Notes under the pieces: model-generated
Databases searched by the model: none
Seen by the model: the letters and a program-made list of their open reading frames with translations, nothing else
Told to the model about the DNA's origin: nothing
Translations under genes and position numbers: made by a program
In this document: positions 13,587 to 62,521 of the stretch, piece by piece
How positions within the stretch are numbered: the stretch's first letter is position 1
How the letters are laid out: every line of letters starts with the position of its first letter
Origin: Acidimicrobiales bacterium
GTDB taxonomy: Bacteria; Actinomycetota; Acidimicrobiia; Acidimicrobiales; JACDCH01
Reading direction: 5' to 3'
Length of the DNA: 64,000 nucleotides
Assembly: GCA_051000215.1 (NCBI GenBank)
Contig: JBPCON010000035.1
Coordinates: 7,852-71,851, forward strand

Positions 13587-14264
13587 GTGTTGATCTGCTG
13601 CTGGTCCTGCAAGGGCGGTGCTGGCACGACCGTCGTCGCGAGCGCGCTGGCCCTCTCGCTCGCCCGGGTCAACCCACCCGGCGCGCTGATCGTCGACCTC
13701 GCTGGGGACGTGCCAGCGGTACTCGGGCTATCGGAGCGCCCCGACGACCCCGGTGTCGCCGGGTGGCTCGGCGCCGCGGAGAGCGCGGGCGCCGATGAGC
13801 TGGCGCGGCTCGAGGTGCCCGTCGGCCGAGGCCTGCGCCTGCTGTCTCGCGGCGACGGAGCGCTCTTGGCGAGCCGAGGCGAGCTGCTCGGCGCTGTGCT
13901 TGCAGCCGATCCGCGCCCCATCGTCGTCGACGCCGGCGTGCTCGCCCTGGCGGGTCGAGCACCAGGGCTCGGCGGCGAGGTCGCCATCACCCTCGCTGGC
14001 GCAGCATCGCGATCGCTGCTCGTGGTGCGGCCCTGCTTCCTCGCTGTGCGCCGTGCGCTGCGCGCCCCGGTGCGCGCCTCGGGCATCGTCGTGGTCGTCG
14101 AGGAGGGGCGAGCTCTCGCGGCCGTCGACGTGGAGGAGACGCTCGGGATCCCCGTGCTCGCGCAGGTCAAGGTGACCCCCCAGGTCGCGCGTGCCGTCGA
14201 CGCCGGCATCCTCGCGACTCGGTTGCCCCGGAGCCTCGAGCGCGACCTCAGTCATGCGGCTTGA
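13587..14264 (+). CDS. Ssd/CpaE(TadZ)-like ParA/MinD-fold protein of the Tad locus, degenerate P-loop
   Basis: GTG preceded by GGGAGG. The N-terminal WSCKGGAGTTVVASALA is a deviant Walker A with Thr in place of the GK[ST] Lys. It sits directly upstream of tadA. Confidence 0.75.
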   Translation: MLICCWSCKGGAGTTVVASALALSLARVNPPGALIVDLAGDVPAVLGLSERPDDPGVAGWLGAAESAGADELARLEVPVGRGLRLLSRGDGALLASRGELLGAVLAADPRPIVVDAGVLALAGRAPGLGGEVAITLAGAASRSLLVVRPCFLAVRRALRAPVRASGIVVVVEEGRALAAVDVEETLGIPVLAQVKVTPQVARAVDAGILATRLPRSLERDLSHAA

Positions 14265-15312
14265 ACCCGTTCGTGTTCGCGCGGCGTCCGCCGTCGGCCA
14301 GCCAGGTCCGCGGCTCGTCGGGCTCGGCCCACTCGACGCGCTCCTGGCAGACGCGGCGGTCTCGGAAGTGATGGTCAACGGCGCGGGCGCGGTGTGGGTC
14401 GAGCGCACCGGCTCGCTCGAGGAGACCGATGTCGTGCTCGATGTTGCCACCATTGATCATGTGCTCGAGCGGATCGTCGCACCGCTCGGCTTGCGCGTCG
14501 ACCGGACGAGCCCGCTCATCGACGCGCGGTTGCCCGATGGCTCACGCGTCAACGCGGTCGTGCCGCCGATCGCGATAGACGGACCGTGTCTCACCATCCG
14601 GCGGTTCGGCGCGAGGCCGGTGCCGCTCGATGAGCTGTGCCCGCCAGGGATCGCCGAGCTGCTCTCGTGGGCGGTGCGGGCCCGGGCGAACATCATCGTG
14701 AGCGGCGGCACAGGTGCAGGCAAGACCACGTTGCTCAACGCGCTCGCCGCGCGCATACCCGACGGTGAGCGCATCGTGACGGTCGAAGACGCGGCCGAGC
14801 TTCGTCTCCCCGCCCGCCACGTCGTGCGCCTCGAGGCACGTCCGGCCAACGCGGACGGGCTGGGCGCGGTCACGCTGCGGGCCCTGGTGCGCAACGCGCT
14901 GCGCATGCGCCCGGATCGCATCATCGTCGGCGAGTCGCGCGGTCCCGAGGCACTCGACGTCCTCCAAGCGATGAACACCGGCCATGAGGGGTCGCTCTCA
15001 ACGTGCCACGCCAACTCGCCGCCCGACGCGTTGCGGCGCCTCGAGACGATGGTCCTCATGGGCGACGTCGCCCTGCCCCTGGCCGCGGTTCGAGACCAGC
15101 TCGGGGCAGCGGTCGACCTCGTCGTGCACGTCGCGCGATCAGCTGCCGGCGGGCGCCGAGTCGTGGCGCTCGCCGAAGTCGCAGCCGAATGGGCTGGCGT
15201 CGGAGAGCGTGTGCGCTCGCTCGGCGACGCGGACGGGCTCCACCGGCTGCCCGTCCGCGCGGTTCGGATGCCCGGCGCGGCCCGTCCGGATCCGGCCTGG
15301 TTGGCGAGGTGA
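14254..15312 (+). CDS. tadA: CpaF/TadA-family type IV pilus/secretion ATPase
   Basis: Walker A VSGGTGAGKTTLLNAL, Asp box, Walker B RIIVGESRG, His box GHEGSLSTCHANS. Confidence 0.9.
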   Translation: MRLEPVRVRAASAVGQPGPRLVGLGPLDALLADAAVSEVMVNGAGAVWVERTGSLEETDVVLDVATIDHVLERIVAPLGLRVDRTSPLIDARLPDGSRVNAVVPPIAIDGPCLTIRRFGARPVPLDELCPPGIAELLSWAVRARANIIVSGGTGAGKTTLLNALAARIPDGERIVTVEDAAELRLPARHVVRLEARPANADGLGAVTLRALVRNALRMRPDRIIVGESRGPEALDVLQAMNTGHEGSLSTCHANSPPDALRRLETMVLMGDVALPLAAVRDQLGAAVDLVVHVARSAAGGRRVVALAEVAAEWAGVGERVRSLGDADGLHRLPVRAVRMPGAARPDPAWLAR

Positions 15313-51504: not shown

Positions 51505-53133
51505 ATGCGCGCAGCGCTTCGTGATCCGGAGATCCTGCATCGGCGCCGCTGGCTCACGCTGCTCGTGCTGTGCATCAGCCTCATCGTCATCACGCTCGAC
51601 AACACGATCCTCAACGTCGCGCTGCCGACGTTGGCCAAGCCACTGGCTCAGGGCGGGTTGGCGGCGTCGTCGAGCCAGCTCCAGTGGACCGTCGACGCCT
51701 ACACGATCGTGTTCGCCGGGCTGCTGCTCACGGCAGGGAGCTTGGGGGATCGTTTCGGGCGCTACCGAGGCCTCGCCATCGGGCTCACGATCTTCGGCAT
51801 CGGCTCCCTGGCCTCGTCCTTCGCTGGCTCGGCCAACGTGTTGATCGCCACTCGAGCGCTCATGGGCGTCGGCGGCGCGTTCATCATGCCGTCGACCCTG
51901 TCGATCCTCACCAACGTCTTCACCGATCCGGCCGAGCGCGGCAAGGCGATCGGCATCTGGGCTGGCGTGTCGGCGCTCGGCATCGGTCTGGGCCCCATCA
52001 GCGGCGGGACCTTGCTGAGCCACTTCTGGTGGGGCTCGGTGTTCCTCGTCAACGTGCCGATCGTGATCGCGGGTCTCGTGCTCGGCTTCTTGCTCGTCCC
52101 CGAGTCACGCGATCCCTCGAAGCCCCGGCTCGACCCTCTCGGAGCCGCGCTCTCGATCGGAGGTTTGACCGCGGTGCTGTGGGCGGTCATCGAGGCACCG
52201 TCGCACGGTTGGAGCTCTGTCGAGGTTCTCCTTGCGTTCGTCGTTGGCGCGGTCATCCTCGGCTCGTTCTTCGCGTGGGAGCTGCACACCGATCACCCGA
52301 TGCTCGACATGCACTTCTTCGAGAACCCTCGCTTCACCGCAGCGAGCGGCGCGATCACCCTGACGTTCTTCGCGCTCTTCGGAACGCTGTTCCTGCTGAC
52401 CCAATACCTGCAGTCGGTGCTCGACTACTCGACCGTCGAGGCCGGCGCCGTGCTGTTGCCCCAAGCCGCAACGCTGATGGTGTGCGCGCCGCTGTCGAAC
52501 GTGTGGGTGCAACGCTTCGGCAACAAGCGCGTCGTGACGACCGGGCTTCTCATCGTCTCGGCTTCGCTTTTCGGGTTTCTCCTCTTCACGCCAGAGAGCA
52601 GCGTGCTCACCGTCATCAGCGTCTCGATGGTCATGGGCATCGGGATGGCCAACATCATGGCTCCCGCGACCGACTCCATCATGGGGTCGTTGCCCCGGGC
52701 GAAGGCCGGTGTCGGCTCGGCGGTCAACGACACGACGCGCCAGGTCGGCGGAGCCGTCGGGGTCGCTGTGCTCGGCTCGCTCCTGTCGAGCCGCTACAGC
52801 AGCGCGGTCACCGACAAGCTCGGCGCGGGGTTCGACGCGAAGCTCCTCGGCCCCGTGAAGCAGGGGGTTGGCCAAGCCGTCGGCATCGGGCGTTCGGTGC
52901 CAGGAGGCGACGCCATCGTCGACGCTGCTCGCGAGGCCTTCGTCGGGGGCATGCACGTCGCTGCCGTCGTTGCGGCGTGCGTGACGCTGATCGCCGCCGC
53001 CGGTGTTGCGAAGTGGCTGCCCGCAAGGCCCCGCGACGACGAGATCGTCAACGCCGTGCGAGGCGAGGCGCCGCCGAGCACCCCCACTGGCGAGCCCGCT
53101 GCAGGGGAGCTCGTGGGCGAGCCCGCGAGCTGA
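51505..53133 (+). CDS. MFS transporter, DHA2 (EmrB/QacA-like, 14-TMS) drug:H+ antiporter family
   Basis: LDNTILNVALPT, WTVDAYTIVFAGLLLTAGSLGDRFGR motif, about 14 hydrophobic segments. Confidence 0.88.
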   Translation: MRAALRDPEILHRRRWLTLLVLCISLIVITLDNTILNVALPTLAKPLAQGGLAASSSQLQWTVDAYTIVFAGLLLTAGSLGDRFGRYRGLAIGLTIFGIGSLASSFAGSANVLIATRALMGVGGAFIMPSTLSILTNVFTDPAERGKAIGIWAGVSALGIGLGPISGGTLLSHFWWGSVFLVNVPIVIAGLVLGFLLVPESRDPSKPRLDPLGAALSIGGLTAVLWAVIEAPSHGWSSVEVLLAFVVGAVILGSFFAWELHTDHPMLDMHFFENPRFTAASGAITLTFFALFGTLFLLTQYLQSVLDYSTVEAGAVLLPQAATLMVCAPLSNVWVQRFGNKRVVTTGLLIVSASLFGFLLFTPESSVLTVISVSMVMGIGMANIMAPATDSIMGSLPRAKAGVGSAVNDTTRQVGGAVGVAVLGSLLSSRYSSAVTDKLGAGFDAKLLGPVKQGVGQAVGIGRSVPGGDAIVDAAREAFVGGMHVAAVVAACVTLIAAAGVAKWLPARPRDDEIVNAVRGEAPPSTPTGEPAAGELVGEPAS

Positions 53134-53141
53134 CGAAAGGC

Positions 53142-54413
53142 TCAGGCTGGTTCGAGGGCGAGTGGGTCCTCGGCGAGGGCTGAGGGGAGAGGCGCGACAG
53201 GCAGTCGGCGGCCCGCGATGACCCCGATGCCGGCGGCCACGAGGCAGGCGACGCCGCCGAGTGCGGTGCCAACCCGCGCGCCCCAGACATCACACACCGC
53301 GCCGAGCAGGGGGCCGCCGATCGGGGTCGAGCCGAGGAAGACCATGGCTTGAAGCGCCAACACCCGTCCTCGCATCTCCGGCGCGGCACGAACCTGCACG
53401 ATGGCTGTCGCGGCGGTGAGGAACGCGATGCTCGTCACCCCGACGAAGACCGAGACCGGGAAGGCCAAGGCCAACGACGGCACGGCCGCGAGCGTCAGCA
53501 TCGCCGCGCCGAAGCCGACGGATGCGACGACCAGGTCGTGCACGTGGATCGCTTTGCGACGCGCCGTGGCCAACGCCCCGATCAGCGAGCCGATGCTGAT
53601 CACCGAGAACAAGAGCGTGAACGTGCCGTCGTCACCGTTGAAGGTGCGCTCGACGAACAGGGGCATCACGACGGAGAAGTTGAAGGCGAGGGTGCCGATG
53701 ACCGCCATCATCACGAGAGGGATCCAGAGGTCAGGCACGGTGCGGACGTAGCGCAAGCCCTCGCGCACCTGCCCTCTGTGACGCGGGGTGACCGGAGGAC
53801 GGCGCAGCTTCGTCGGGTCGATCAGCCAGAGGCACACGAGCACCGCGATGTAGGAGAGGCCGTCGACGGTGAAGCACCAACCGAAGCCCACCGTGTGGGC
53901 CAGCAGACCTGCCAGCGCCGGGCCGAAGATGCGCGAGCTCGTCATCTGCGCGCTGTTGAGGCTCACTGCGTTCTGCATGTCCTCTTCTTCGACCATCTCG
54001 ACGACGAACGCTCTTCGCGCCGGGTTGTCGAACGCGAGCGTGCACCCGCCAGCCACAGCGACGGCGTAGATCGCCCAGACAGGCGGGTCGCCAGTGAAGG
54101 CGAGCGCTGCCATCGCGAACGACTGCGCCATGGCAAAGGTCTGCACGATGAGAAGCAGACGCCTCTTGTCCGAGCGGTCGGCTACGAGACCTGCCCACGC
54201 GCCGAAGAGGAGCACAGGGGCGAACTGGCACGCCGCCAGCACGCCGACGGCGACGCCGTTGCCGGTGAGGTGCAGCACCAGCAACGTCTGGGCCACCAAC
54301 GTGAGCCAGTTCCCTATTTGAGAGATGAGCTGCCCGCCGAAGAAGAGCCGAAAGTTCCTGGTGCCGAGCGAGCGGAACGTCTCCCTCGTCGCGCCCTTGA
54401 ACCGATCGACCAT
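53142..54413 (-). CDS. MFS transporter (MFS_3 / EntS-like)
   Basis: About 12 TM segments. GLVADRSDKRRLL is the loop 2-3 motif. Confidence 0.85.
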   Translation of the reverse strand: MVDRFKGATRETFRSLGTRNFRLFFGGQLISQIGNWLTLVAQTLLVLHLTGNGVAVGVLAACQFAPVLLFGAWAGLVADRSDKRRLLLIVQTFAMAQSFAMAALAFTGDPPVWAIYAVAVAGGCTLAFDNPARRAFVVEMVEEEDMQNAVSLNSAQMTSSRIFGPALAGLLAHTVGFGWCFTVDGLSYIAVLVCLWLIDPTKLRRPPVTPRHRGQVREGLRYVRTVPDLWIPLVMMAVIGTLAFNFSVVMPLFVERTFNGDDGTFTLLFSVISIGSLIGALATARRKAIHVHDLVVASVGFGAAMLTLAAVPSLALAFPVSVFVGVTSIAFLTAATAIVQVRAAPEMRGRVLALQAMVFLGSTPIGGPLLGAVCDVWGARVGTALGGVACLVAAGIGVIAGRRLPVAPLPSALAEDPLALEPA

Positions 54414-54457: not shown

Positions 54458-55693
54458 CTATCCCGAAGTAGTGAGCACAGCCCAGGCATCGCCGAAGAGA
54501 TCGCCGACGGCGTCAGGACTCGCGGCGCGCTGGACAACGTCGATGGCCCGCTGGCCTTCCTCGGCGACGGCGTGGCGCGCAGCTTGTTCGAGCTCGACGG
54601 CTTCGTCCCAGGGGCCCGAAGGAGCAAACCGTTCGAGATCGTCGATCGCGTAGTTCAGATGCGAGACGGCGTGTTGGGCGGCGTCGACAGGGGCCTCGAC
54701 CGTGCTGGCCCAGGCATCGTCGACGACACCGATCGTTCGCTCGCTCGGCGAAGGTGGCGCCACCACGAGCAGGTCGTCGCGCTGCACGACGACAGCGGCG
54801 AGGTTGGCCAGTGCCAGCGTTTCGTCGTCGAAGTACTCCCCGTGACCGACAGCGGTACCCGTCGCCAGGCGCGTCGCGCCGAACCGCGGATCGCTCGGGT
54901 CGCGGCCGAAGGCTTCGCTGAGGGCGACGGGATCGAACGGCGCTCGCTCGGCATACACGTGCACATCCGGCGCGGCCAGCTCGGTCACGTTCTCGGCCTG
55001 CACCCCAGGGCTGCCGACGAGCACGACGTCATCGACGCGCATCCCCGAGCGAAGGCCGTTTGCGGCGACGAGAGACCCATAGCTGTGGGCCACGACGGTC
55101 ACCGATGCGTCATCGCGAAGGGGCAGGTTCGCCACGAAGCTCGAAAGCGCCATGCCGCCGGCAGCCGCATCGTCGTCCAGCAGCACGTCGAGTGGCCCCG
55201 GGGCGTCGTAGCCGAGCCAGGCGACGACGGCGACGTCGTCTCGCCCGTCGAGCGCACGCGCCGCGTCGAAGAGCCGACGAGCGCGGGGCACAAGCGTGGC
55301 TGCTTCGTTTGCAACGGTCGTCCCCATGCCGGGTACGACGATGGCGATGTGAGTGGCTCGTTCGAGGTCGCCGAAGACCTCGATGGCGTTCGTATGACCG
55401 CCGGCTTCGGTGAGCACGCGTGGCTCCGCGGTGCTCGCGGATGCGCCGGCGCGCTCGAACGCGACTCCGACCGCCGCGGCCCAGGAGTCGAGCGAAGCGC
55501 CGGTTCGCTCGTGGCAGCGGATGGCTGCGGCGAGCTCTCGCAAGGCGGTCTCGGCCGGGAGTCCCGAGAGGGTCATGGCGTCGGCCGCGTCCTCCAGCCG
55601 GCTGCTCGCCATGGTGAGCCGCGCCCCGCGATCAGGGCTGCTGCGGCCGATGGCGGCCAGGTGCTCGGGTACTGCCGCACAGCGCACGGTCAT
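54458..55693 (-). CDS. DUF1023-type alpha/beta hydrolase with helical N- and C-terminal extensions
   Basis: Core THIAIVVPGMGT...VAWLGYDAP...TVVAHSYGSLVA (nucleophile elbow)...VLVGSPG. About 100-aa helical N-terminal region. Confidence 0.8.
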   Translation of the reverse strand: MTVRCAAVPEHLAAIGRSSPDRGARLTMASSRLEDAADAMTLSGLPAETALRELAAAIRCHERTGASLDSWAAAVGVAFERAGASASTAEPRVLTEAGGHTNAIEVFGDLERATHIAIVVPGMGTTVANEAATLVPRARRLFDAARALDGRDDVAVVAWLGYDAPGPLDVLLDDDAAAGGMALSSFVANLPLRDDASVTVVAHSYGSLVAANGLRSGMRVDDVVLVGSPGVQAENVTELAAPDVHVYAERAPFDPVALSEAFGRDPSDPRFGATRLATGTAVGHGEYFDDETLALANLAAVVVQRDDLLVVAPPSPSERTIGVVDDAWASTVEAPVDAAQHAVSHLNYAIDDLERFAPSGPWDEAVELEQAARHAVAEEGQRAIDVVQRAASPDAVGDLFGDAWAVLTTSG

Positions 55694-55741: not shown

Positions 55742-58700
55742 ATGTCTATCCATGTCTCAGCGACTCGGATCCGCCTCGCGGTTGCCGGACCCGGGTTTGC
55801 CAGCGACGTCGTCCTCGACATGCGAGGGGGCAACCCCGACGTGGGCGAGCTGCTCGCCGTTGTGGCCCCCGACATCGAGGCGGTCGGTCTCGTCGTCGAC
55901 GGCGGGTTCGTGCCAGCGGCGCGAGCGTTGCGAGATGCCGGGCTGCACGACGGCGCGCTCGTCGAGGTGGCCACGGCGCGACGAGCGGCCCGCCCCTCGA
56001 GTGCCGCTGGGCGTTCGGGTGCGCTCGTCGTGGTGGAGGGCCTCGACGCTGGTCGCCGCATCGCGATCAGCCCGGGAACCCACATCGTCGGCCGCGGCGC
56101 AGCGCTCGACTTGAGGCACCCCAGCGTGTCGCGCGAGCACGCCGCTCTTGTCGTGGGCGCTTCCGGGTCGGTCGCGATCGGCGACCTGGGCTCGCGCAAC
56201 GGCACGTGGCGCGGCCGGCGCGCGATCGGGCGGCCACTCGAGCCGCTCGCCCCGGGCGAGCTCGTGCGGATCGGCGCGCTCGACATCGCGGTGCGTGCCG
56301 CGCGCGGCGATGACCGGCCGCTCCGAGTCGAGCGACCGCACGCCGCGACCACACCGTTCAATCGTCAACCTCGTCCCGCGCCGGATGTCGAGCTCGCCGC
56401 CATCGTGACGCTCCCCGCGCCGCCGAGGGCACCTTCCAACCACACCCCGTTCTCGGTCGCCGCCTTTGCCCTCCCGCTGCTGCTCGCTGTGCTGCTGGTG
56501 AAGCTCGCCGGCAACCCCACCTTCGCCCTGTTCGCGCTGCTCAGCCCGGTGATGATCGCCTCGACGGCGATCGAGCAGCGCCGGCGCGGGGCGCGCATGG
56601 GACGGCGGGCTGCTGCTGGCCGTCGCAGCGATCTCGTTGCTCTCGCATCTGCGCTCGAGGCGTCCATGAGCGCGGAGCGCGACAGGAGGTTGGGTGCGCT
56701 GCCGGACTTGGCGGAGGTCACCCGGTGGGCTTGCGCACCGAGTGTGCGGCTCTGGGAGCGACGCGGCGTGCACGGCGACTTCCTACGCGTGCGCGCTGGC
56801 ACCGGCGACGTGCCCTGGCTTCCCTCGCTCGATGGGCCGAGCAGCGCCCATGCCGAAGACGTCGAGTCGATCCTGGCGAGCCATCGTCGTCTCGTCGACG
56901 TCCCACTCGAGCTCGACCTGAGCGCTGGTGGCGCAGTCGGAGTTGTCGGCGACCGCGCTGCCGCGCTCGCGGTTGCACGCGGCATCGTTGTGCAAGCAGC
57001 GGTTCATCAGGGACCGGCTGATCTCGCGATCGCGGTCCTGACCGCTGACGAAGCCGATCGCGACTGGGAGTGGGCGAAGTGGCTGCCCCACACCCGAGCA
57101 GTGGGCGGTGTGGCGTTGCTGGCACGCGGGCGAACCGAGGCAGCTGCCATAGCCGAAGCGCTCGTGGCGGCGGGGAGCGCACCACTTCACCCGAACGCTC
57201 TGGTCGTCGTCGACGGAGAGCAGCTCCTCGAGGGGCGCCGCTCACCGGTGCGCGCGCTGCTGCAGGGACGCGCCGCCCTTTCAGGCATCGTGGTCGCGGC
57301 GTCGCTCGACCGCCTGCCAGCGGCGTGCACGGCGGTGATCGAGCTGCGAGGCCCTGATGGACTCGCGATGCTGCGGGGTGCACGCGGCGACCGCACGTCG
57401 ATGTTGGTTTCAGGCTGCGCGCTCGACGTCGCTCGCGATTGCGCGCGGCACCTCGCGCGGTTCGACGATCCCGAGCTCGAGGCCACAGGCGCGGGGCTCC
57501 CGAGCGACGTTTCGCTCCTCGAGCTCGTCTCGCCGCCCGATCAACCCCTCGCCCTCGCCATCATCGATTCTTGGGCCGGCGCCGGAATCGACGCCAGGCC
57601 TTGCGCGCTGCTCGGGGTCGGCCTCGACGGCGTGATCGGGGTCGACCTCGACCACGACGGCCCCCACGCGCTGATCGCAGGGACGACAGGCTCCGGGAAG
57701 AGCGAGCTCCTCCGCAGCCTCGTTGCTGGCCTCGCCGCCCGCCTCCCGCCGGAGCAGCTGAACTTCCTCCTCATCGACTTCAAAGGAGGCGCGGCGTTCG
57801 ACGCGTGCGCCCGGCTCCCTCACTGCGTCGGCCTCGTCACCGACCTCGACGAACACCTCGCCGAACGGGCGCTGCGTTGCTTGGAAGCCGAGCTTCGTCA
57901 TCGCGAGCTGCTGCTGAGATCGTGCGCGGCGGCCGACCTCGGTGCCTACCGGCGCGCCAACGGAGTCGGCGCACTGCCCCGCCTCGTCGTTGTCGTCGAT
58001 GAGTTCGCGACGCTGAAGGCTGAGGTGCCCGGGTTCATCGACGCTCTCGTGGGTGTCGCGCAACGGGGCCGGTCGCTCGGTGTGCATCTCGTGCTCGCGA
58101 CGCAACGCCCAGCAGGCGCGGTGAGCGACAACATCCGAGCCAACACCGGGCTACGCATCGCTCTGCGTGTGCACGACGCGGCCGACGCCACCGATGTGAT
58201 CGGCGACGCCGCGGCTGCAGCGATCCCGCGGGCTCGACCAGGGCGCGCCGTGGTGCGATTCGGACCGGGCGAGCTCGTCGCGATGCAGACGGCGCGGATC
58301 ACTGGCGTGCCGTTCGGCGCGACCGACGCGTCGATCGTCATCACGCCGTTCGCCTTCGGATCCGGCGACCGACGAGCATCGAGCGTGGAGGGCGATGGCG
58401 CGACCGACCTCGACGCCTTGGTCGGCGCGTGCTGCGACGCGTTCGAAGTCAGCGGAGCACCGCTGCCGCGGCGACCCTGGACGGAGCCGTTGCCAGTCGA
58501 GCTCGACCTCGACGACCCTGAGCTGGCAACGCCAACACCGGCCAGCGACGACATCGTGTTCGCCTTGGCCGATGACCCGGACAGCCAGCGGCGCCACCCG
58601 CACGCTTGGCGGTTGCGCGACGGCAACCTGCTCGTGTGGGGGATCGGCGGGAGCGGCACGAGCACGGTCCTCGCTTCCATCGCGCTCGCCGCGGCCGCGC

Positions 58701-59947
58701 GCACTTCTCCTGCGAGGTTGCACATGTACGTGATCAGCCACGGGGCCGGGGAGCTCGCGGTCCTCGGGGAGCTTGCGCACTGCGGTGGCGTCGTCGAAGC
58801 AGCGGATCGAGAGCGTGAGGTGCGGACGTTGCGAATGCTGCGCGCTGAGCTCGCAAGGCGGCGATCGTTGCGCGGCGAGCAGAGGGAGGAGCTGCCGAGG
58901 CTGCTGTTGTTGCTCGACGGCTACTCAGGGTTCGCAGCCGAGCGCGCCGACGCGGCGGGCATGGCCGTACTTGATGACCTGCTGCGGGTGTTCGCCGACG
59001 GGAACGAGGTCGGCATCCACGTCGCCATCACCGCAGATCGCGTCGGTGCCGTGCCTGTTGCGGTCAGCTCCCTCGCCCGCCAGCGCCTGCTGCTTCGCTT
59101 GGCCGATGCCCACGACTACGGCCTTGCCGGGGTGGCGGGGCGGGCCTTGCCGCGCTTTGCGCCGGGTCGGGGCATCGATGCCGAGAGCGGTCGAGTCGTT
59201 CAAGTCGCCCAGCCGCGAGGTGGGCTCGACGCCGCAGTGCGGGCGATCGCGGACCGTGCTCGGTCTGCGCCGCGGGCTCGCGGTGGGCCGTCGCCGATCG
59301 GAGTGCTCCCGAGCCTCGTCGGCCACCGCGACGTCATCGGGGCGGCGCGTGTTGGCTCGCGCCCATGGCTGCTGCCCATAGGAATCGGCGAACGGACCCT
59401 GCGCCCGGCCGGCTTCGAGCTGTACGAGGGCGAGCACGCGCTGGTCGCCGGGCCGCCCCGGTCGGGGCGCAGCAGCGCGCTCATGGCCGTCGCGAGAGCG
59501 TTCGCCAGCGCGGTGCCCGACGGTCGCATCGTCGCGATCGCCGGACCACGATCGCCGCTCGGCGCGTGGCCCGGCGCGCTGCGCACAACCGACGCAGCAC
59601 AGGCTGTCTCAGGGCTCGCGGCGCGCGCGGGCCCGACGCTGCTGCTCGTCGACGATGCCGAACTGGTCGAGGATCCGACGGGCGTGCTCGCAGCCCTGCT
59701 CACCCAGCAGCACGCCGACCTCGTGATCGTGGCCGCAGGTCGGGCTGAGACGCTGCGTACGGCGTACGGCCATTGGACCAGAGGGCTGCGCCGCTCGAAG
59801 CTCGGCGTGTTGCTGCAGCCGGACACCGACCTCGACGGTGAGCTCATCGGCCGCGTGTTGCCTCGTCGCTCGCCTGTCGTGCTCTCCGCTGGGCGCGGGT
59901 GGCTCAGCGGTGGCGGCGAGCTGGAGGTCGTGCAGCTCGCCACTTGA
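55742..59947 (+). CDS. EssC/EccC-like type VII secretion FtsK/SpoIIIE-family ATPase: ubiquitin-like N-domain + FHA + 2 TM + three P-loop domains
   Basis: FHA: HIVGRG..SVSREHA..LGSRNGT. TM: FSVAAFALPLLLAVLLV / FALFALLSPVMIA. D1: PHALIAGTTGSGKSELL with VVVVDEF. D2: GIGGSGTS. D3: GPPRSGRS. 1401 aa from ATG 55742. Confidence 0.88.
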   Translation: MSIHVSATRIRLAVAGPGFASDVVLDMRGGNPDVGELLAVVAPDIEAVGLVVDGGFVPAARALRDAGLHDGALVEVATARRAARPSSAAGRSGALVVVEGLDAGRRIAISPGTHIVGRGAALDLRHPSVSREHAALVVGASGSVAIGDLGSRNGTWRGRRAIGRPLEPLAPGELVRIGALDIAVRAARGDDRPLRVERPHAATTPFNRQPRPAPDVELAAIVTLPAPPRAPSNHTPFSVAAFALPLLLAVLLVKLAGNPTFALFALLSPVMIASTAIEQRRRGARMGRRAAAGRRSDLVALASALEASMSAERDRRLGALPDLAEVTRWACAPSVRLWERRGVHGDFLRVRAGTGDVPWLPSLDGPSSAHAEDVESILASHRRLVDVPLELDLSAGGAVGVVGDRAAALAVARGIVVQAAVHQGPADLAIAVLTADEADRDWEWAKWLPHTRAVGGVALLARGRTEAAAIAEALVAAGSAPLHPNALVVVDGEQLLEGRRSPVRALLQGRAALSGIVVAASLDRLPAACTAVIELRGPDGLAMLRGARGDRTSMLVSGCALDVARDCARHLARFDDPELEATGAGLPSDVSLLELVSPPDQPLALAIIDSWAGAGIDARPCALLGVGLDGVIGVDLDHDGPHALIAGTTGSGKSELLRSLVAGLAARLPPEQLNFLLIDFKGGAAFDACARLPHCVGLVTDLDEHLAERALRCLEAELRHRELLLRSCAAADLGAYRRANGVGALPRLVVVVDEFATLKAEVPGFIDALVGVAQRGRSLGVHLVLATQRPAGAVSDNIRANTGLRIALRVHDAADATDVIGDAAAAAIPRARPGRAVVRFGPGELVAMQTARITGVPFGATDASIVITPFAFGSGDRRASSVEGDGATDLDALVGACCDAFEVSGAPLPRRPWTEPLPVELDLDDPELATPTPASDDIVFALADDPDSQRRHPHAWRLRDGNLLVWGIGGSGTSTVLASIALAAAARTSPARLHMYVISHGAGELAVLGELAHCGGVVEAADREREVRTLRMLRAELARRRSLRGEQREELPRLLLLLDGYSGFAAERADAAGMAVLDDLLRVFADGNEVGIHVAITADRVGAVPVAVSSLARQRLLLRLADAHDYGLAGVAGRALPRFAPGRGIDAESGRVVQVAQPRGGLDAAVRAIADRARSAPRARGGPSPIGVLPSLVGHRDVIGAARVGSRPWLLPIGIGERTLRPAGFELYEGEHALVAGPPRSGRSSALMAVARAFASAVPDGRIVAIAGPRSPLGAWPGALRTTDAAQAVSGLAARAGPTLLLVDDAELVEDPTGVLAALLTQQHADLVIVAAGRAETLRTAYGHWTRGLRRSKLGVLLQPDTDLDGELIGRVLPRRSPVVLSAGRGWLSGGGELEVVQLAT

Positions 59948-60002
59948 CAACGGCCGGAGATGATCGAAACTGCATGAGACATCACCGAATCCAGGAGCAA
60001 CC

Positions 60003-60281
60003 ATGAGCGTACGCACCGTCGCCGACCCTCTCGCGAAGGACGCGGTCACCCACCTGCGATCCACCCTCGCCGGCGGGTTCCTCGAGACCATCCAGCAGGT
60101 GGTGCGCGACGGGGAGACGCTGAGCCGCCCCGATCTCTGGGACGGCCCGCGGGCCATCCAGTTCCGCCAGAGCTGGCCAGAGCTCCGAGGCGCGCTGCAA
60201 AACGCCCACTCCGACCTGACCGAGCTGGCCGGCTCGATCGACGCCATCACCACAGCGATCATGCACGCCGGTGGCGCGTGA
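60003..60281 (+). CDS. WXG100-family (Esx-like) small secreted protein
   Basis: AGGAG RBS 5 nt before the ATG. 92 aa with two predicted helices around a central W-D-G (PDLWDGPRA). Confidence 0.75.
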   Translation: MSVRTVADPLAKDAVTHLRSTLAGGFLETIQQVVRDGETLSRPDLWDGPRAIQFRQSWPELRGALQNAHSDLTELAGSIDAITTAIMHAGGA

Positions 60282-60565
60282 CCGTCGAGCGCCAGTTCGC
60301 AGCGCTCGCCGCGACGGAGGCGGCGTGCGCATGCCGATCGGCGGCGGGCGCGTTGCGCGCGGACGCCGCGGATCGAGCCGTCGTGGCGGCACCCGCCCTC
60401 GGCTCGTGGCAGGGCCCTCACCGTGCGACGTTCGACGATGCGGTCGATTTGCTCGCGAGAGCCTCAGGCAGGCTGGAGCGCGCTGGGCTGGCGCTGGCAG
60501 CAGCGCTCGACGACGCCGCGGTGAGGGCCGCTGGCCCGGGCGCCGGGGTGACGAGCGGCTGGTGA
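60278..60565 (+). CDS. WXG100-like partner protein (divergent, Ala-rich)
   Basis: GTGA overlap with the upstream esx-like gene. 95 aa with a central W-Q-G (LGSWQGPHRA). Helical Ala/Leu/Arg composition. Confidence 0.55.
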   Translation: MTVERQFAALAATEAACACRSAAGALRADAADRAVVAAPALGSWQGPHRATFDDAVDLLARASGRLERAGLALAAALDDAAVRAAGPGAGVTSGW

Positions 60566-61593
60566 GAATCCCATCCACGGTGCCCGGCTACGTGCTCGGC
60601 GCGCCGCTCGGCCGTCGAGTCTGGTCGGCGAGACCAGCCGGCGGAGGCGACCCCCTTGCCATCAAGTTGCCGGGGCAAACCGCCGGCACAGCGCGTCGCG
60701 AGGCAGCGGCGCTCGCCGCTGTACGACACCCGAACCTGGTCAGGGTCCTCGACGTCGTCGACACTCCAGCGGGTCCTGCGCTGGTGTTCGCTCGGGCAGC
60801 GTGCACCTTGGCCGAACACGTTGCTCGATGCGGGACCCTGCCGCCGGGGGAGGTGGTCACCATCGGCTCCGCCGTCGCGGGTGCGCTCGCTGCGCTGCAT
60901 CGGCACGGGCTCGTGCACGGCGACGTCCACCCAGCCAACGTGCTCATCGCGCCGGACGGGACGCCGCTGCTCGCCGACCTCGAGCTCGCGGGTCCGCCAG
61001 CCGCGCCGGCAGCAATGACACCTGGGTTCGTCGCGCCCGAAGTGGCAGCCGGGGGCTGCGTGACCGCGAGCGCCGACCAGTGGGCACTTGCGGTCACGTG
61101 CAACGCTGCGCTCGACGAGGCAGTTCCCGAGCCGCTGCTCACCGCGCTCGAGGTCGCGATGGCGCCGTCGCCGACCGAGCGCTTCGCCGACGTCGAGGTC
61201 TTCGCTGCCGAGCTCCGTCGCGCGTGCACGCCGGCCCGACTCGCGCTGGCGGACAACTCGAGTCATCGGGCGCCGACCGGCCGAGGTGCTCGCGCGCTGA
61301 TGCGCAGCAGGTCGACCATCGCAGTCCCCACCACCCGGCGCTTCGGCCCGCGGCCCCCGCCGCGGACACGAGAGTCGCGTCGTCGAAGGCCGCTTTCGGG
61401 AGTCGCGCTGATCGCCGTAGCGGCTTCGGCAGGCGTCGGCGGTGTGCTGGTGCTACGAGCTCATGTTGGCGCCGCCCCGGAGCCGGCTGCGTGCGCGGCA
61501 CCAGCTCAGTTCGGCGACCGCTTCGACCCCGGCCGCGTGCCGATCATCGTGCGCACTGAGGGCGGATGCGACGCGGTAGCGACCCGGCGGTAG
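60562..61593 (+). CDS. membrane-anchored Hanks-type Ser/Thr protein kinase (divergent, non-RD)
   Basis: GTGA overlap. LAIK Lys, E in REAAALA, catalytic loop [11 protein letters not shown] in place of DFG, APE (FVAPE), DQWALA. C-terminal [21 protein letters not shown] plus a ~50-aa ectodomain. Confidence 0.75.
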
Positions 61594-61604
61594 GGTCGCC
61601 GGTG

Positions 61605-62228
61605 ATGGCGGATCAGTCGACGTTCGCTGCGCAAGCGATGCCCTTCATGGACTCGCTCTTCGCTGCTGCGATGCGCATGACACGCAATCGAGCCGACGCA
61701 GAGGACCTCGTGCAGGAGACGTTCCTCAAGGCGTACCGCGGCTTCGGCGGGTTCGAGGAGGGCACGAACCTCAAAGCCTGGCTCTACCGCATCCTCACCA
61801 ACACCTACATCAACACCTACCGCGCCAAGAAGCGCCGTCCCGAGGAGTCCGACCTCGACGACGTCGAGGACCTCTACCTGTACCGCAAGCTGTCATCGGG
61901 CGATGCAGCGGCGTTGGGACGTAGCGCCGAGGACGAGCTCTTCGAGCGCTTCACCGACGATGAGGTGAAGGGCGCGGTCGAGGCGCTCCCCGAGCAGTTC
62001 CGCATGGCCGTGCTGCTCGCCGACATCGAGGGTTTCTCGTACAAGGAGATCGCCGAGATCCTCGACATCCCGATCGGCACGGTGATGTCGAGGTTGCACC
62101 GGGGAAGAAAGGGCCTGCAGAAGCGGTTGTGGGAGTTCGCCACCCGGGAGGGCCTGATCACCGGGGACGCCACCGATGAGGCCGAACACGACGAGGTCCC
62201 CGCTGCAGCCGATGCAACGGGGACGTGA
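61605..62228 (+). CDS. sigH: ECF sigma factor, SigH/SigR type
   Basis: Region 2 [17 protein letters not shown]...[12 protein letters not shown]. Region 4 [26 protein letters not shown]. Followed by a ZAS anti-sigma gene. Confidence 0.88.
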
Positions 62229-62242
62229 GGGCGACAAGACAA

Positions 62243-62521
62243 ATGGCAGGACACGAGTGCGACGACGCGCTGCACACGATGTACCACTTCCTCGACGGGG
62301 AGCTGACCGAGGATCGACGTGCCCAGATCCAGGCGCACATCGAGGCGTGCCCGCCGTGCTTCGAGGGCTTCGACTTCGAGGCCGAGCTACGCCAGGTGAT
62401 CGCCAAGCGGTGCTACGAGGAGGTGCCGGAGGCGCTCCGCACCCGTATCGCCAGCGCGATCGACCACGAGCGGTTGCATCCGAGCGACGCGCCGAGCGAC
62501 TCTTCGAGACCCGACTCGTAG
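62243..62521 (+). CDS. rsrA: zinc-associated anti-sigma factor, RsrA/RshA type (mycothiol-system anti-SigR-like)
   Basis: N-terminal C (GHECDD) plus the H-x3-C-x2-C motif (HIEACPPC). Confidence 0.85.
   Translation: MAGHECDDALHTMYHFLDGELTEDRRAQIQAHIEACPPCFEGFDFEAELRQVIAKRCYEEVPEALRTRIASAIDHERLHPSDAPSDSSRPDS

What the first reader, a model, noticed from the sequence alone, without database searches (positions are those of the whole stretch)
55742..56299. Canonical phosphothreonine-binding FHA plus a ubiquitin-like N-domain on the T7SS ATPase, with a kinase in the same operon
**FHA domain.** Residues ~94-186 read THIVGRGAALDLRHPSVSREHAALVV...IGDLGSRNGTWRG. All classic FHA pThr-contact positions are present: GR, S-x-x-H and NG.

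**N-terminal domain.** The first ~75 aa (IRLAVAGPGFASDVVLDMRGGNPDVGELLAVV...RALRDAGLHDGALVEV) follow the pattern of YukD/EsaB/EccD-N ubiquitin-like beta-grasp domains. That pattern is a strand, a hydrophobic helix, then '...L.DAGL.DGA.V.V'.

**Operon context.** The last gene of the operon is a membrane Ser/Thr kinase.

**Inference.** Secretion could be gated by kinase-dependent phosphorylation that is read by the ATPase's own FHA domain. Fusing the ubiquitin-like module, a separate protein or EccD domain in known systems, would help explain the missing partner genes.
Basis: partly seen in the sequence, partly recalled or inferred. Interest (0 to 1): 0.65.

Follow-up and report, generated by a model that had tools for sequence, protein, structure and literature searches.

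The report
Ubiquitin-like plus FHA head on T7SS ATPase
The motor ATPase of a very small type VII-like protein-export cluster, in an uncultured soil or sediment actinobacterium, begins with a ubiquitin-shaped domain fused to a phosphothreonine-reading FHA domain and shares an operon with a membrane kinase; this layout recurs in a few hundred related proteins, but I found no description of it in the papers I searched.

Summary

- **Gene.** Window 55742-59947 (+) encodes a 1401-aa EccC/EssC-type ATPase.
- **FHA domain.** Residues 93-186 are a true FHA domain: Pfam 35.7 bits against a cutoff of 20.7, and Foldseek TM about 0.8 to GarA, OdhI, FhaA and MDC1. G117-R118, S130-x-x-H133 and N153-G154 are all in place. 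The full signature is kept in 49 of 65 family sequences.
- **N-terminal domain.** Residues 8-82 are predicted as a beta-grasp (AlphaFold2 pLDDT 82.5). Nearly all of the top 50 PDB matches are ubiquitin-like domains, including EccD3. Membership of the YukD Pfam family is not shown by sequence.
- **Operon.** Two WXG100-like genes and a 343-aa membrane kinase follow. These three genes are joined by GTGA start/stop overlaps.
- **Kinase.** It is atypical (HGD, Lys to His, DLE, degenerate Gly loop) and most resembles PknI. Related Rothia, Rathayibacter and Solirubrobacterales loci carry canonical kinases beside the same ATPase.
- **Spread.** The N-domain profile finds 239 protein clusters, almost always at residues 1-73. 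The full-length hits are about 1400 aa.

Phosphorylation-gated T7SS with FHA-bearing ATPases was already proposed (T7SSc/d/e, Garrett and Palmer 2024). The ubiquitin-like domain fused onto the ATPase appears undescribed. I rate it a new variant of a known kind, of moderate interest.

The parts
55742..59947 (+). 1401-aa EccC/EssC-type T7SS ATPase gene. Domain order: ubiquitin-like, FHA, two transmembrane helices, stalk/DUF, three FtsK/SpoIIIE P-loop domains.
   Evidence: ORF and start. Pfam FtsK_SpoIIIE E 1.1e-50. NCBIfam EssC 441 bits, EccCa 338 bits, EccCb 282 bits, all below their cutoffs. PDB: T. curvata EccC 250 bits, B. subtilis YukB 193 bits.
55763..55987 (+). N-terminal ubiquitin-like beta-grasp domain (residues 8-82).
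   Evidence: AlphaFold2 pLDDT 82.5, pTM 0.71, beta-grasp order of elements. Foldseek matches are nearly all ubiquitin-like domains, including EccD3. The profile finds 239 clusters, almost all at protein residues 1-73.
56018..56299 (+). FHA domain (residues 93-186) with G117-R118, S130-x-x-H133, S151-x-N153-G154-T155.
   Evidence: Pfam FHA 35.7 bits. PDB alignments. Foldseek TM about 0.8 to pThr-binding FHA domains. Signature conserved in 49 of 65.
56357..56374 (+). Juxtamembrane motif F-N-R-Q-P-R (residues 206-211). It is the family's counterpart of the Y/F-x-R-S-P-R motif that precedes the first transmembrane helix in EssC-type ATPases.
   Evidence: R208, P210 and R211 are invariant in 10 relatives and 82-95% conserved in 65. 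The comparison is with the alignment in the supplement of PMC11217815.
56441..56575 (+). Two predicted transmembrane helices (about residues 234-278).
   Evidence: Hydropathy scan.
57680..57703 (+). Walker A of ATPase domain 1 (GTTGSGKS, residues 647-654). Walker B LVVVVDE starts at residue 748. Domains 2 and 3 are degenerate (GIGGSGTS starts at residue 967).
   Evidence: Motif scan. Pfam FtsK_SpoIIIE best stretch 634-791.
60003..60281 (+). WXG100-like protein 1 (92 aa, central W-D-G), with an AGGAG ribosome-binding site upstream.
   Evidence: Sequence. It is 42% identical to a Rathayibacter neighbour gene that matches Pfam WXG100 at E 0.0013. It has no Pfam hit of its own.
60278..60565 (+). 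WXG100-like protein 2 (95 aa, central W-Q-G). Its start overlaps the stop of protein 1 (GTGA).
   Evidence: Sequence. Sub-threshold Pfam matches to EspC (E 0.013) and WXG100 (E 0.043) span the whole protein.
60562..61593 (+). 343-aa membrane-anchored Hanks-type kinase or pseudokinase. Kinase-like domain at about residues 8-225, a Thr/Ser/Arg-rich linker, a transmembrane helix at 279-300, and an extracytoplasmic tail of about 40 aa. Its start overlaps the stop of WXG2 (GTGA).
   Evidence: Pfam Pkinase 69.8 bits. Best PDB relative is PknI. Start codon and overlap. Transmembrane helix and motifs.
54458..55693 (-). Divergently transcribed 411-aa Abhydrolase_8 (PF06259) protein with helical N- and C-terminal extensions and no signal peptide. 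It is a possible substrate. Its link to the system is unproven, and it is not conserved in related loci.
   Evidence: Pfam 123.9 bits. Sequence. No homologue in the related loci.

Best explanation
Window 55742-56299 encodes the cytoplasmic N-terminal head of the motor ATPase of a compact type VII-like secretion system of Actinomycetota.

**What the head is.** It is a ubiquitin-like beta-grasp domain fused in cis to a single FHA domain that keeps a complete phosphothreonine pocket. It is followed by the juxtamembrane FNRxPR motif, two transmembrane helices, a stalk/DUF region and three FtsK-type ATPase domains.

**Proposed mechanism.**
1. (Inferred by analogy with the B. subtilis YukB-YukC-YukD core unit, PMC12637312.) The fused ubiquitin-like domain does in cis what YukD/EsaB or the EccD N-domain do in trans. 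It packs against the FHA domain and the ATPase's DUF region and fixes the position of the FHA domain.
2. (Inferred.) The FHA domain docks the co-encoded membrane kinase or a protein that kinase phosphorylates. The most likely target is a pThr in the kinase's Thr-rich juxtamembrane linker. Assembly or activation of the ATPase, and hence export of the two WXG100-like proteins and any cargo, would then depend on threonine phosphorylation.

**Shown here.** The domain identities, the operon structure, the conservation of the pThr pocket, and the conservation of the kinase neighbourhood.

**Inferred.** Every binding and regulatory step.

My confidence in the anatomy is about 0.85 and in the phospho-dependent mechanism about 0.45. 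The figure given is a blend.
For: - **FHA identity and pocket residues:**
- **Pocket conservation:** signature kept in 49 of 65 family sequences. In the phospho-independent EssC FHA domains of T7SSb, the GR and SxxH motifs are conserved in 0% and NG in 21% (Table S1 of PMC11217815).
- **Ubiquitin-like fold:**
- **Fusion is a stable family trait:** 239 clusters at E <= 1e-3 in 1.84 billion representatives, nearly all with the domain at residues 1-73. Full-length members are 1339-1497 aa.
- **ATPase is EccC/EssC-type:**
- **Operon:** the start/stop overlaps WXG1/WXG2 and WXG2/kinase are both GTGA.
- **Kinase next to the orthologous ATPase:** Rothia (9 loci, directly downstream), Rathayibacter L005, and Solirubrobacterales L002, L003 and L018. 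All are full Pkinase matches of 155-174 bits.
- **Secretion context in relatives:** related loci carry a true WXG100 (79.7 bits) and a WXG/T7SS_signal protein.
- **Structural precedent:** YukD is held between the YukB FHA domains and the DUF region, and the YukC pseudokinase dimer sits on the tip of FHA2 (PMC12637312).
Against: - The window's kinase lacks the HRD Arg, the catalytic-loop Lys, the FG of DFG and a proper Gly loop. It most resembles PknI, so it may not phosphorylate anything.
- It is only 27% identical over about 145 residues to the canonical kinases of related loci, so orthology is doubtful.
- The ubiquitin-like domain is not detectably a YukD-family member. There is no Pfam hit. 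hhalign against EccD N-domains gives P 0.0039 and probability 8.5%.
- The relative position of the two domains is not reliably modelled (pTM 0.46 for residues 1-215).
- The two WXG100-like proteins do not reach Pfam thresholds.
- No pore-forming membrane partner was found.
- Nothing was tested biochemically.
Confidence: 0.55

Rival explanations
1. Phosphorylation-independent scaffold. As in T7SSb, the FHA domain simply binds the N-lobe of a catalytically dead membrane pseudokinase (an EssB/YukC analogue). The ubiquitin-like domain is a structural brace, and there is no phospho-switch.
For: The window kinase has degenerate catalytic motifs and resembles PknI. Its topology (N-terminal kinase-like domain, one transmembrane helix, short outside tail) is that of EssB/YukC and of TshM in T7SSh (PMC11217815). 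The YukC dimer binds the tip of YukB FHA2 without phosphorylation (PMC12637312).
Against: The pThr-contact residues are strongly conserved in this family, whereas EssC has lost them. Related loci carry fully canonical kinases. The window kinase keeps the beta3 Lys, the alphaC Glu, the catalytic Asp and Asn and the Mg-binding Asp. It has no Pfam match to the YukC family at E < 0.01.
Confidence: 0.22
2. The FHA domain reads a phosphothreonine made by some other kinase, or one sitting on substrates or adaptors. It would then control substrate choice or hierarchy rather than assembly, and the adjacent kinase would have a separate role, for example envelope sensing.
For: Bacterial FHA domains commonly integrate signals from several Hanks kinases (general knowledge of FhaA, GarA and Rv1747). 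In Schaalia a kinase/FHA pathway next to the Esx genes controls which substrates are exported (PMC13622651). Locus L018 has a second FHA-encoding stretch beside its kinase.
Against: The kinase gene's start overlaps the stop of the second WXG gene in the window. The kinase neighbourhood is conserved across three orders. Both point to a dedicated pair.
Confidence: 0.15
3. The N-terminal 80 residues are not a ubiquitin-like domain. They would be a degenerate first FHA domain, as in EssC/TsdC, or a poorly modelled segment.
For: The best Foldseek E-value is only 1.9e-3. There is no significant sequence-family match. The alignment behind the model is shallow, at 12 sequences.
Against: Two independent AlphaFold2 runs give the same beta-grasp order, with pLDDT 72-92 across the domain. 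Nearly all top structural matches are ubiquitin-like. Sub-threshold sequence hits are also beta-grasp families: ISG15, SAMP2, ThiS, YukD, Rad60-SLD and ubiquitin. About 75 residues is too short for an FHA fold. The domain profile scores no more than 4 bits on the N-termini of TsdC, TseC and EssC.
Confidence: 0.05
4. The ATPase is not a secretion motor but an FtsK/TraB-like DNA translocase carrying a regulatory FHA domain.
For: Public records name family members only 'FtsK/SpoIIIE domain-containing protein'. All NCBIfam T7SS equivalog cutoffs are missed.
Against: The protein has three tandem P-loop domains and two N-terminal transmembrane helices. EssC, EccCa and EccCb models match at E 1e-132, 1e-100 and 7e-84, against FtsK at 7e-17 and TraB at 7e-7. 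The best solved relatives are EccC and YukB. WXG100-like genes are adjacent here, and true WXG100 and T7SS_signal proteins are present in relatives.
Confidence: 0.03

Closest known systems
T7SSb core unit YukB(EssC)-YukD(EsaB)-YukC(EssB) of Bacillus subtilis (cryo-EM, PMC12637312; PDB 9QKS)
   Same: It has the same three kinds of part: an FtsK-type membrane ATPase with an N-terminal FHA region, a ubiquitin-like module that contacts it, and a single-pass membrane protein with an N-terminal kinase fold. YukB is the second-best solved relative of the ATPase (193 bits).
   Different: Here the ubiquitin-like module is fused to the ATPase in place of the first FHA domain. There is one FHA domain, not two, and it keeps the pThr pocket that EssC has lost. 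The kinase-like protein matches Pkinase rather than the YukC family and has almost no extracellular domain. No EsaA, EssA or YueB/YueC equivalents were found.
T7SSd and T7SSe (TsdC/TseC ATPase plus TsdD/TseD kinase; Garrett and Palmer 2024, PMC11217815)
   Same: T7SSd is an actinobacterial system with an FHA-bearing ATPase whose GR/SxxH/NG motifs are conserved, a membrane Ser/Thr kinase in the cluster, and WXG100 proteins. Those authors already proposed phosphothreonine control.
   Different: TsdC and TseC (about 1560-1570 aa) have a first FHA-like domain where this protein has the ubiquitin-like domain. The N-domain profile does not match them. T7SSd is reported to have no ubiquitin-like component at all. 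The single-pass TsdH and the 1654-aa TsdI have no counterpart in the window. The window kinase lacks the long helical outside region.
T7SSa/ESX: EccD N-terminal ubiquitin-like domain contacting the EccC DUF region
   Same: A ubiquitin-like domain is fused to a core membrane component and contacts the ATPase. The ATPase body is closest to actinobacterial EccC (T. curvata EccC 250 bits; EccCa plus EccCb 620 bits against EssC 441 bits). EccD3 appears among the structural matches of the N-domain.
   Different: The fusion partner here is the ATPase itself, not a polytopic membrane protein (12 transmembrane helices according to PMC1779556). EccC has no FHA domain. EccB, EccD, EccE and MycP were not found in the window. 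EccD N-domains match Pfam YukD at 66-94 bits, and this domain does not.
Threonine-phosphorylation control of type VI secretion (PpkA/TagE kinase with Fha/TagH) and FHA-regulated transporters such as Rv1747 (general knowledge; the T6SS case is cited in PMC11217815)
   Same: The logic is the same: a membrane Hanks kinase phosphorylates a Thr that an FHA domain of the export machine reads, and this switches assembly or activity.
   Different: These are unrelated machines. Here the FHA domain is part of the motor ATPase and is paired with a ubiquitin-like domain.
TshM of T7SSh (PMC11217815)
   Same: It is a small kinase-like protein with a single C-terminal transmembrane helix and no extracellular domain, encoded in a T7SS cluster.
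   Different: T7SSh is found in Bacillota. Its ATPase lacks FHA domains and it has a separate ubiquitin-like TshB.

Membership tests
FHA domain, phosphothreonine-binding type (Pfam PF00498) | Profile match above the curated threshold | tested here: met
   35.7 bits against a cutoff of 20.7, residues 115-178.
FHA domain, phosphothreonine-binding type (Pfam PF00498) | Conserved pThr-contact residues: Gly-Arg, Ser-x-x-His, (Ser/Thr)-x-Asn-Gly | tested here: met
   G117-R118, S130-H133 and S151/N153-G154 align with those of FhaA, GarA and CT664. They are invariant in 10 relatives, and the full signature is in 49 of 65.
FHA domain, phosphothreonine-binding type (Pfam PF00498) | Beta-sandwich FHA fold | tested here: met
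   The AlphaFold2 model matches MDC1, OdhI, GarA and FhaA with target TM 0.72-0.83 and E about 1e-6. This is a prediction, not an experiment.
FHA domain, phosphothreonine-binding type (Pfam PF00498) | Binds a phosphothreonine peptide | not testable with these tools
   Needs ITC or pull-down with pThr peptides.
YukD/EsaB/EccD-N ubiquitin-like family (Pfam PF08817) | Ubiquitin-like beta-grasp fold | tested here: met
   pLDDT 82.5, pTM 0.71 and beta-grasp order. The top 50 Foldseek matches are nearly all ubiquitin-like domains, with EccD3 at ranks 37 and 42.
YukD/EsaB/EccD-N ubiquitin-like family (Pfam PF08817) | Match to the YukD profile | tested here: not met
   No Pfam hit for the window domain even at E <= 10, and the best of 10 family members reaches YukD at E 0.045. 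EccD N-domains from T7SSa loci score 66-94 bits on the same model.
YukD/EsaB/EccD-N ubiquitin-like family (Pfam PF08817) | Profile-profile similarity to EccD N-domains | tested here: inconclusive
   hhalign gives P 0.0039 and probability 8.5%, with 67 columns aligned over the full domain in the expected register.
YukD/EsaB/EccD-N ubiquitin-like family (Pfam PF08817) | Physically associated with a T7SS ATPase | tested here: met
   It is fused to the ATPase, at residues 1-73 of about 1400-aa ATPases across the family.
EccC/EssC type VII secretion ATPase | Two N-terminal transmembrane helices, a stalk/DUF region and three FtsK/SpoIIIE P-loop domains | tested here: met
   Pfam FtsK_SpoIIIE E 1e-50. 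Walker motifs at 647 and 748 (domain 1), 967 and 1054 (domain 2) and a Walker B-like run at 1300 (domain 3), with transmembrane helices at 234-278. Best PDB relatives are EccC and YukB.
EccC/EssC type VII secretion ATPase | Reaches the NCBIfam equivalog cutoffs (EssC, EccCa, EccCb) | tested here: not met
   441 against 778.4, 338.3 against 509.15 and 282.2 against 346.55. It is a divergent subfamily.
EccC/EssC type VII secretion ATPase | WXG100 substrate genes adjacent | tested here: inconclusive
   Two 92-95-aa ORFs with a central W-x-G lie directly downstream, but their Pfam matches are sub-threshold or absent. Related loci carry a true WXG100 at 79.7 bits and a WXG/T7SS_signal protein.
T7SSd (Garrett and Palmer 2024) | ATPase with FHA pThr motifs conserved, plus a membrane Ser/Thr kinase in the cluster | tested here: met
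T7SSd (Garrett and Palmer 2024) | TsdC-type N-terminus (first FHA-like domain) and no ubiquitin-like component | tested here: not met
   The window has a ubiquitin-like domain there. The N-domain profile gave no reportable match to the TsdC N-terminus copied from the paper's supplement, and at most 4 bits to TseC and EssC.
T7SSd (Garrett and Palmer 2024) | TsdH (small single-pass protein) and TsdI (about 1650 aa, signal peptide, Ig-like repeats, C-terminal transmembrane helix) | tested here: not met
   No ORF of that size or type lies next to the cluster. The neighbours are an alpha/beta hydrolase, MFS transporters and SigH/RsrA.
T7SSa (ESX) | EccB, EccD, EccE and MycP encoded with EccC | tested here: not met
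   None was found among the window ORFs scanned with Pfam. Not every ORF of the window was scanned.
Hanks-type Ser/Thr protein kinase, active | Pkinase profile match | tested here: met
   69.8 bits against a cutoff of 31.7, but only profile positions 43-193 of 263.
Hanks-type Ser/Thr protein kinase, active | Complete catalytic motifs (Gly loop, VAIK Lys, alphaC Glu, HRD-x-K-x-x-N, DFG, APE) | tested here: inconclusive
   Present: AIK Lys, alphaC Glu, catalytic Asp, Asn, Mg-binding Asp and APE. Altered: the Gly loop (GAPLGR), HGD, Lys to His, and DLE. Activity cannot be judged from sequence.

The most novel reading that the evidence does not exclude
This protein family (Rothia, Rathayibacter, Enteractinococcus, Paeniglutamicibacter, Solirubrobacterales, Acidimicrobiales, Nitriliruptoraceae and this sediment organism) would define a T7SS subtype outside the published T7SSa-j scheme.

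In that subtype the otherwise near-universal ubiquitin-like component has been fused in cis onto the motor ATPase, directly ahead of a phosphothreonine-competent FHA domain, and a dedicated membrane kinase switches the motor on.

The fusion would be independent, 'Rosetta-stone' evolutionary evidence for the ubiquitin-like/FHA/ATPase contact seen in the B. subtilis cryo-EM structure. The system in this window would be close to a minimal T7SS: an ATPase, two WXG100-like proteins and a kinase.
Probability: 0.4. Interest if true: 0.65.

Novelty: new variant of a known kind. Interest (0 to 1): 0.5.

Why it matters
**A further case of where the ubiquitin-like part sits.** A ubiquitin-like protein or domain accompanies almost every known T7SS subtype, and its absence from T7SSd was called surprising (PMC11217815). 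Its role as the keystone that positions the ATPase's FHA domains was resolved structurally only in 2025 (PMC12637312). A natural fusion of a ubiquitin-like domain to an FHA domain at the N-terminus of the ATPase, conserved in a few hundred sequence clusters, supports that contact from an independent direction. It also shows a third way the module can be supplied: free, on EccD, or on the ATPase.

**A testable phospho-switch.** The FHA domain here keeps its phosphothreonine pocket and travels with a kinase. That makes the family a clean test bed for the open question of whether some T7SS are switched by threonine phosphorylation. Culturable members exist (Rothia mucilaginosa, Rathayibacter).

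**A small parts list.** The very small gene set also bears on what a minimal T7SS needs.

**Annotation gap.** Public records call these proteins only 'FtsK/SpoIIIE' or 'FHA domain-containing', so these secretion systems are currently invisible in genome annotation.

Tried and rejected
- **First homologue search.** The search with residues 1-341 returned only 2 proteins, apparently because low-complexity words swamped the word filter. Searching with alignments built from related genome loci worked.
- **Wrong reading frame.** I first scanned ORF 51570-53183, which gave no Pfam hit. The real gene there is an MFS transporter in another frame.
- **Crude gene caller.** My GC3-based caller put the kinase on the wrong strand and missed the hydrolase. 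I replaced it with cross-genus conservation of ORFs.
- **Window system as T7SSd.** Rejected. The TsdC N-terminus is not matched by the N-domain profile, and TsdH and TsdI are absent.
- **Free-standing ubiquitin-like proteins.** The many short (40-130 aa) hits of the N-domain profile look like contig-end or frameshifted fragments of the ATPase, with out-of-frame tails. I found no evidence for a stand-alone version.
- **Conserved Thr as a phosphosite.** The family has Thr in 86% of sequences at window position 33, where the window has Asp. It sits at the start of the helix and reads as an N-cap, so I did not pursue it. T203 before FNRxPR is Thr in only 60%.
- **Profile search of PDB with the N-domain.** Only sub-threshold ubiquitin-like hits (ISG15 at E 0.18, SAMP2 at E 0.36) and no YukD or EccD.
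- **Transcription evidence.** None found: only metagenomic DNA runs hold the sequence. The promoter and terminator scan was uninformative.

Full report
**What is at the coordinates**

The window is high-GC (about 69%). The sequence is held almost completely by a sediment metagenome run and in part by soil and other sediment runs, so the source is an uncultured organism.

Position 55742 is the ATG of a 1401-codon ORF that ends at 59947, and position 56299 is codon 186. The longer stop-to-stop ORF starting at 54572 is not the gene. In 65 aligned family members the start Met aligns with window residue 10, and the only nearby start codons are this ATG and a GTG 27 codons upstream.

**The ATPase**

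Pfam finds FtsK_SpoIIIE at E 1e-50. NCBIfam models match as follows: EssC at E 9e-132, EccCa at 1e-100 and EccCb at 7e-84. All three fall below the curated cutoffs.

The best solved relatives are Thermomonospora EccC (250 bits) and B. subtilis YukB (193 bits).

The protein has two predicted transmembrane helices at about residues 234-278. ATPase domain 1 has an intact Walker A/B pair (GTTGSGKS starting at residue 647, LVVVVDE starting at 748). Domains 2 and 3 are degenerate.

It is therefore a divergent EccC/EssC-type T7SS motor.

**The FHA domain**

- Pfam FHA scores 35.7 bits against a cutoff of 20.7, over residues 115-178.
- phmmer against PDB aligns residues 89-185 with the phosphothreonine-binding FHA domains of CT664, FhaA/Rv0020c, GarA and OdhI. 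G117-R118, S130-R-E-H133 and S151-R-N153-G154-T155 fall in the canonical columns.
- An AlphaFold2 model of residues 1-215 matches MDC1, OdhI, GarA and FhaA FHA structures with target TM 0.72-0.83.
- These residues are invariant in 10 relatives. The complete GR/SxxH/NG signature is kept in 49 of 65 sequences of the wider family.

This part of the finding is confirmed.

**The N-terminal domain**

Residues 1-88 were modelled alone, with 12 aligned sequences. The result is pLDDT 82.5 and pTM 0.71. The order of elements is strand 8-16, strand 19-27, helix 34-41, strands 47-52 and 55-58, a short helix, then strand 72-78. That is the beta-grasp order, and the longer model gave the same order.

Foldseek against PDB returns almost only ubiquitin-like domains in its top 50: SUMO, UBL domains, ubiquitin and UBX-L. 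EccD3 of ESX-3 is at ranks 37 and 42. The scores are modest (best E 1.9e-3, TM 0.55-0.66).

By sequence the domain belongs to no curated family.
- Pfam gives no hit for the window. Single family members reach ThiS (E 0.027), YukD (0.045), Rad60-SLD (0.053) and ubiquitin (0.25).
- A profile search of PDB gives only sub-threshold ISG15 and SAMP2 matches.
- I took EccD N-domains from the T7SSa loci fetched. They match Pfam YukD at 66-94 bits.
- Profile-profile comparison with those domains aligns the whole domain in the expected register, but only at P 0.0039 and probability 8.5%.

My reading is that the ubiquitin-like fold is well supported as a prediction, while YukD-family membership is not shown.

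**The operon**

- A 92-aa ORF with a central W-D-G starts 56 bp after the ATPase stop, behind an AGGAG ribosome-binding site (60003-60281).
- A 95-aa ORF with a central W-Q-G follows (60278-60565).
- A 343-aa kinase gene follows that (60562-61593).

The start/stop overlaps WXG1/WXG2 and WXG2/kinase are both GTGA, which is the usual sign of translational coupling.

The first small protein is 42% identical to a Rathayibacter neighbour gene that matches WXG100 at E 0.0013. The second has sub-threshold full-length matches to EspC (E 0.013) and WXG100 (E 0.043).

**The kinase**

It matches Pkinase at 69.8 bits, but only over profile positions 43-193. It has one transmembrane helix at residues 279-300 and an outside tail of about 40 aa.

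- Kept: the beta3 Lys (AIK), the alphaC Glu, the catalytic Asp and Asn, the Mg-binding Asp and APE.
- Altered: HGD instead of HRD, His for the catalytic-loop Lys, DLE for DFG, and a degenerate Gly loop.

Its best solved relative is M. tuberculosis PknI. Activity cannot be decided from sequence.

**Surroundings**

Upstream and divergent lies an Abhydrolase_8 protein with helical extensions. Beyond it are two MFS transporters. Downstream are SigH, RsrA and a DUF2342 protein.

Pfam scans of about 30 further ORFs across the window found only housekeeping and metabolic genes. No EccB, EccD, EccE, MycP, EssB or EsaA was found.

**Relatives**

A genome scan found orthologous ATPases in several groups:
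- Solirubrobacterales MAGs, at 45-49% identity;
- Rathayibacter, at 39-42%;
- Rothia, at 36%;
- an Acidimicrobiales MAG.

Those read in full carry the same ubiquitin-like/FHA/FNRPPR head.

An HMM of the N-domain alone, searched against 1.84 billion representative proteins, finds 239 clusters at E <= 1e-3 and 38 at E <= 1e-10. In nearly all of them the domain sits at residues 1-73. Full-length members are 1339-1497 aa. The short hits look like fragments. Named members are called only 'FtsK/SpoIIIE domain-containing' or 'FHA domain-containing' (Enteractinococcus, Paeniglutamicibacter).

A canonical Ser/Thr kinase (Pkinase 155-174 bits, 650-720 aa, one transmembrane helix, an outside domain) lies beside the ATPase in three groups:
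- all nine Rothia loci with enough flank, directly downstream;
- Rathayibacter L005;
- Solirubrobacterales L002, L003 and L018.

Solirubrobacterales loci also carry a true WXG100 (79.7 bits) and a 503-aa WXG/T7SS_signal protein.

Rothia and Rathayibacter share two further upstream genes with no Pfam match. One encodes a 934-1013-aa lipoprotein-like protein. The other encodes a 434-476-aa membrane-anchored protein.

**Comparison with what is known**

Garrett and Palmer (PMC11217815) describe T7SSa to T7SSj.
- In T7SSc/d/e a membrane kinase is encoded in the cluster. In T7SSd/e the ATPase FHA motifs are conserved (GR 98-100%, SxxH 98-99%, NG 90%, against 0, 0 and 21% in EssC).
- They proposed control by threonine phosphorylation.
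- They also note that T7SSd, the actinobacterial subtype, surprisingly has no ubiquitin-like component.

The window's system is not T7SSd.
- TsdC (1563 aa) has a first FHA-like domain at its N-terminus, and the N-domain profile does not match it.
- TsdH and TsdI are absent from the window.

The 2025 cryo-EM structure of B. subtilis YukB-YukC-YukD shows YukD gripped between the YukB FHA domains and the DUF region. It also shows the YukC pseudokinase dimer bound to the tip of FHA2 (PMC12637312).

Iyer and colleagues state that actinobacterial YukD-like domains are always fused to the 12-helix membrane protein (PMC1779556).

In four literature searches I found no description of a ubiquitin-like domain fused to the ATPase.

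**Mechanism proposed**

The shown facts are the domain identities, the fusion, its conservation, the conserved pThr pocket, the operon coupling and the conserved kinase neighbourhood.

By analogy with the YukB-YukC-YukD unit, I infer two steps:
1. The cis ubiquitin-like domain braces the FHA domain against the DUF region.
2. The FHA pocket reads a phosphothreonine, most likely on the kinase's own Thr-rich juxtamembrane linker (residues about 226-276). Motor assembly or activity, and so WXG100-type export, would then depend on kinase signalling.

The main rival is a phosphorylation-independent scaffold of the T7SSb kind. The degenerate motifs of the window's kinase favour it. The conservation of the pThr pocket and the canonical kinases of related loci argue against it.

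**Verdict**

This is a new variant of a known kind of system.

The phospho-gating idea is published. The new element is the cis-fused ubiquitin-like domain on a pThr-competent, FHA-bearing T7SS ATPase, in a widespread but unannotated actinobacterial family with a very small gene set.

Interest is moderate.

Noticed in passing
L005:1760-5865 and L007:1105-5573: Rathayibacter and Rothia share two conserved genes directly upstream of the ubiquitin-like/FHA ATPase. One encodes a 934-1013-aa protein with a lipoprotein-like signal (LLAGC / SSCS) and a long Ala/Ser/Thr-rich helical body. The other encodes a 434-476-aa membrane-anchored protein. Neither has a Pfam match. They may be subtype-specific T7SS components. 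They are absent from the window and from the Solirubrobacterales loci.
   Followed up: partly
window 54458-55693 (-): An Abhydrolase_8 (PF06259) protein is transcribed divergently from the ATPase. If both first start codons are used, the intergenic gap is only 48 bp. It has helical extensions of about 95 aa at the N-terminus and about 100 aa at the C-terminus and no signal peptide. It could be a T7SS cargo, but it is not conserved in related loci.
   Followed up: partly
window 61566-62521: A SigH-type ECF sigma factor and its mycothiol-type anti-sigma factor RsrA follow the kinase gene directly. The first possible ATG of the sigma ORF (61566) lies inside the end of the kinase gene. A later Met at about 61605 would avoid the overlap. 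A regulatory link to the secretion operon is possible but untested.
   Followed up: no
P0195, P0252, P0228, P0239 (hits): A minority of proteins carrying the same N-terminal ubiquitin-like domain have a degenerate second domain without GR/SxxH/NG. The family therefore contains both pThr-competent and apparently phospho-blind versions, which would make a natural comparison set.
   Followed up: partly
window residue 33 of the ATPase (about nt 55838-55840): The residue at the start of the ubiquitin-like helix is Thr in 86% of family members but Asp in the window protein. I read it as a helix N-cap. A phosphosite with a phosphomimetic replacement cannot be excluded.
   Followed up: no
L018:13094-13387: A second FHA-encoding stretch lies beside the kinase gene in one Solirubrobacterales locus. 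This suggests an extra FHA protein in that version of the system.
   Followed up: no
window 13587-15312: A T2SSE-family (Tad/CpaF-like) secretion ATPase gene lies about 40 kb from the T7SS-like cluster. Garrett and Palmer noted Tad pilus genes directly beside T7SSg/h, but here the distance is large and I suggest no link.
   Followed up: no
window 55742-61593: The ATPase and kinase genes have GC3 of about 0.80 and GC1 of about 0.79, against GC3 of 0.87-0.92 in neighbouring genes. This may reflect the Ala/Arg/Gly-rich composition, or a different history for the cluster.
   Followed up: no
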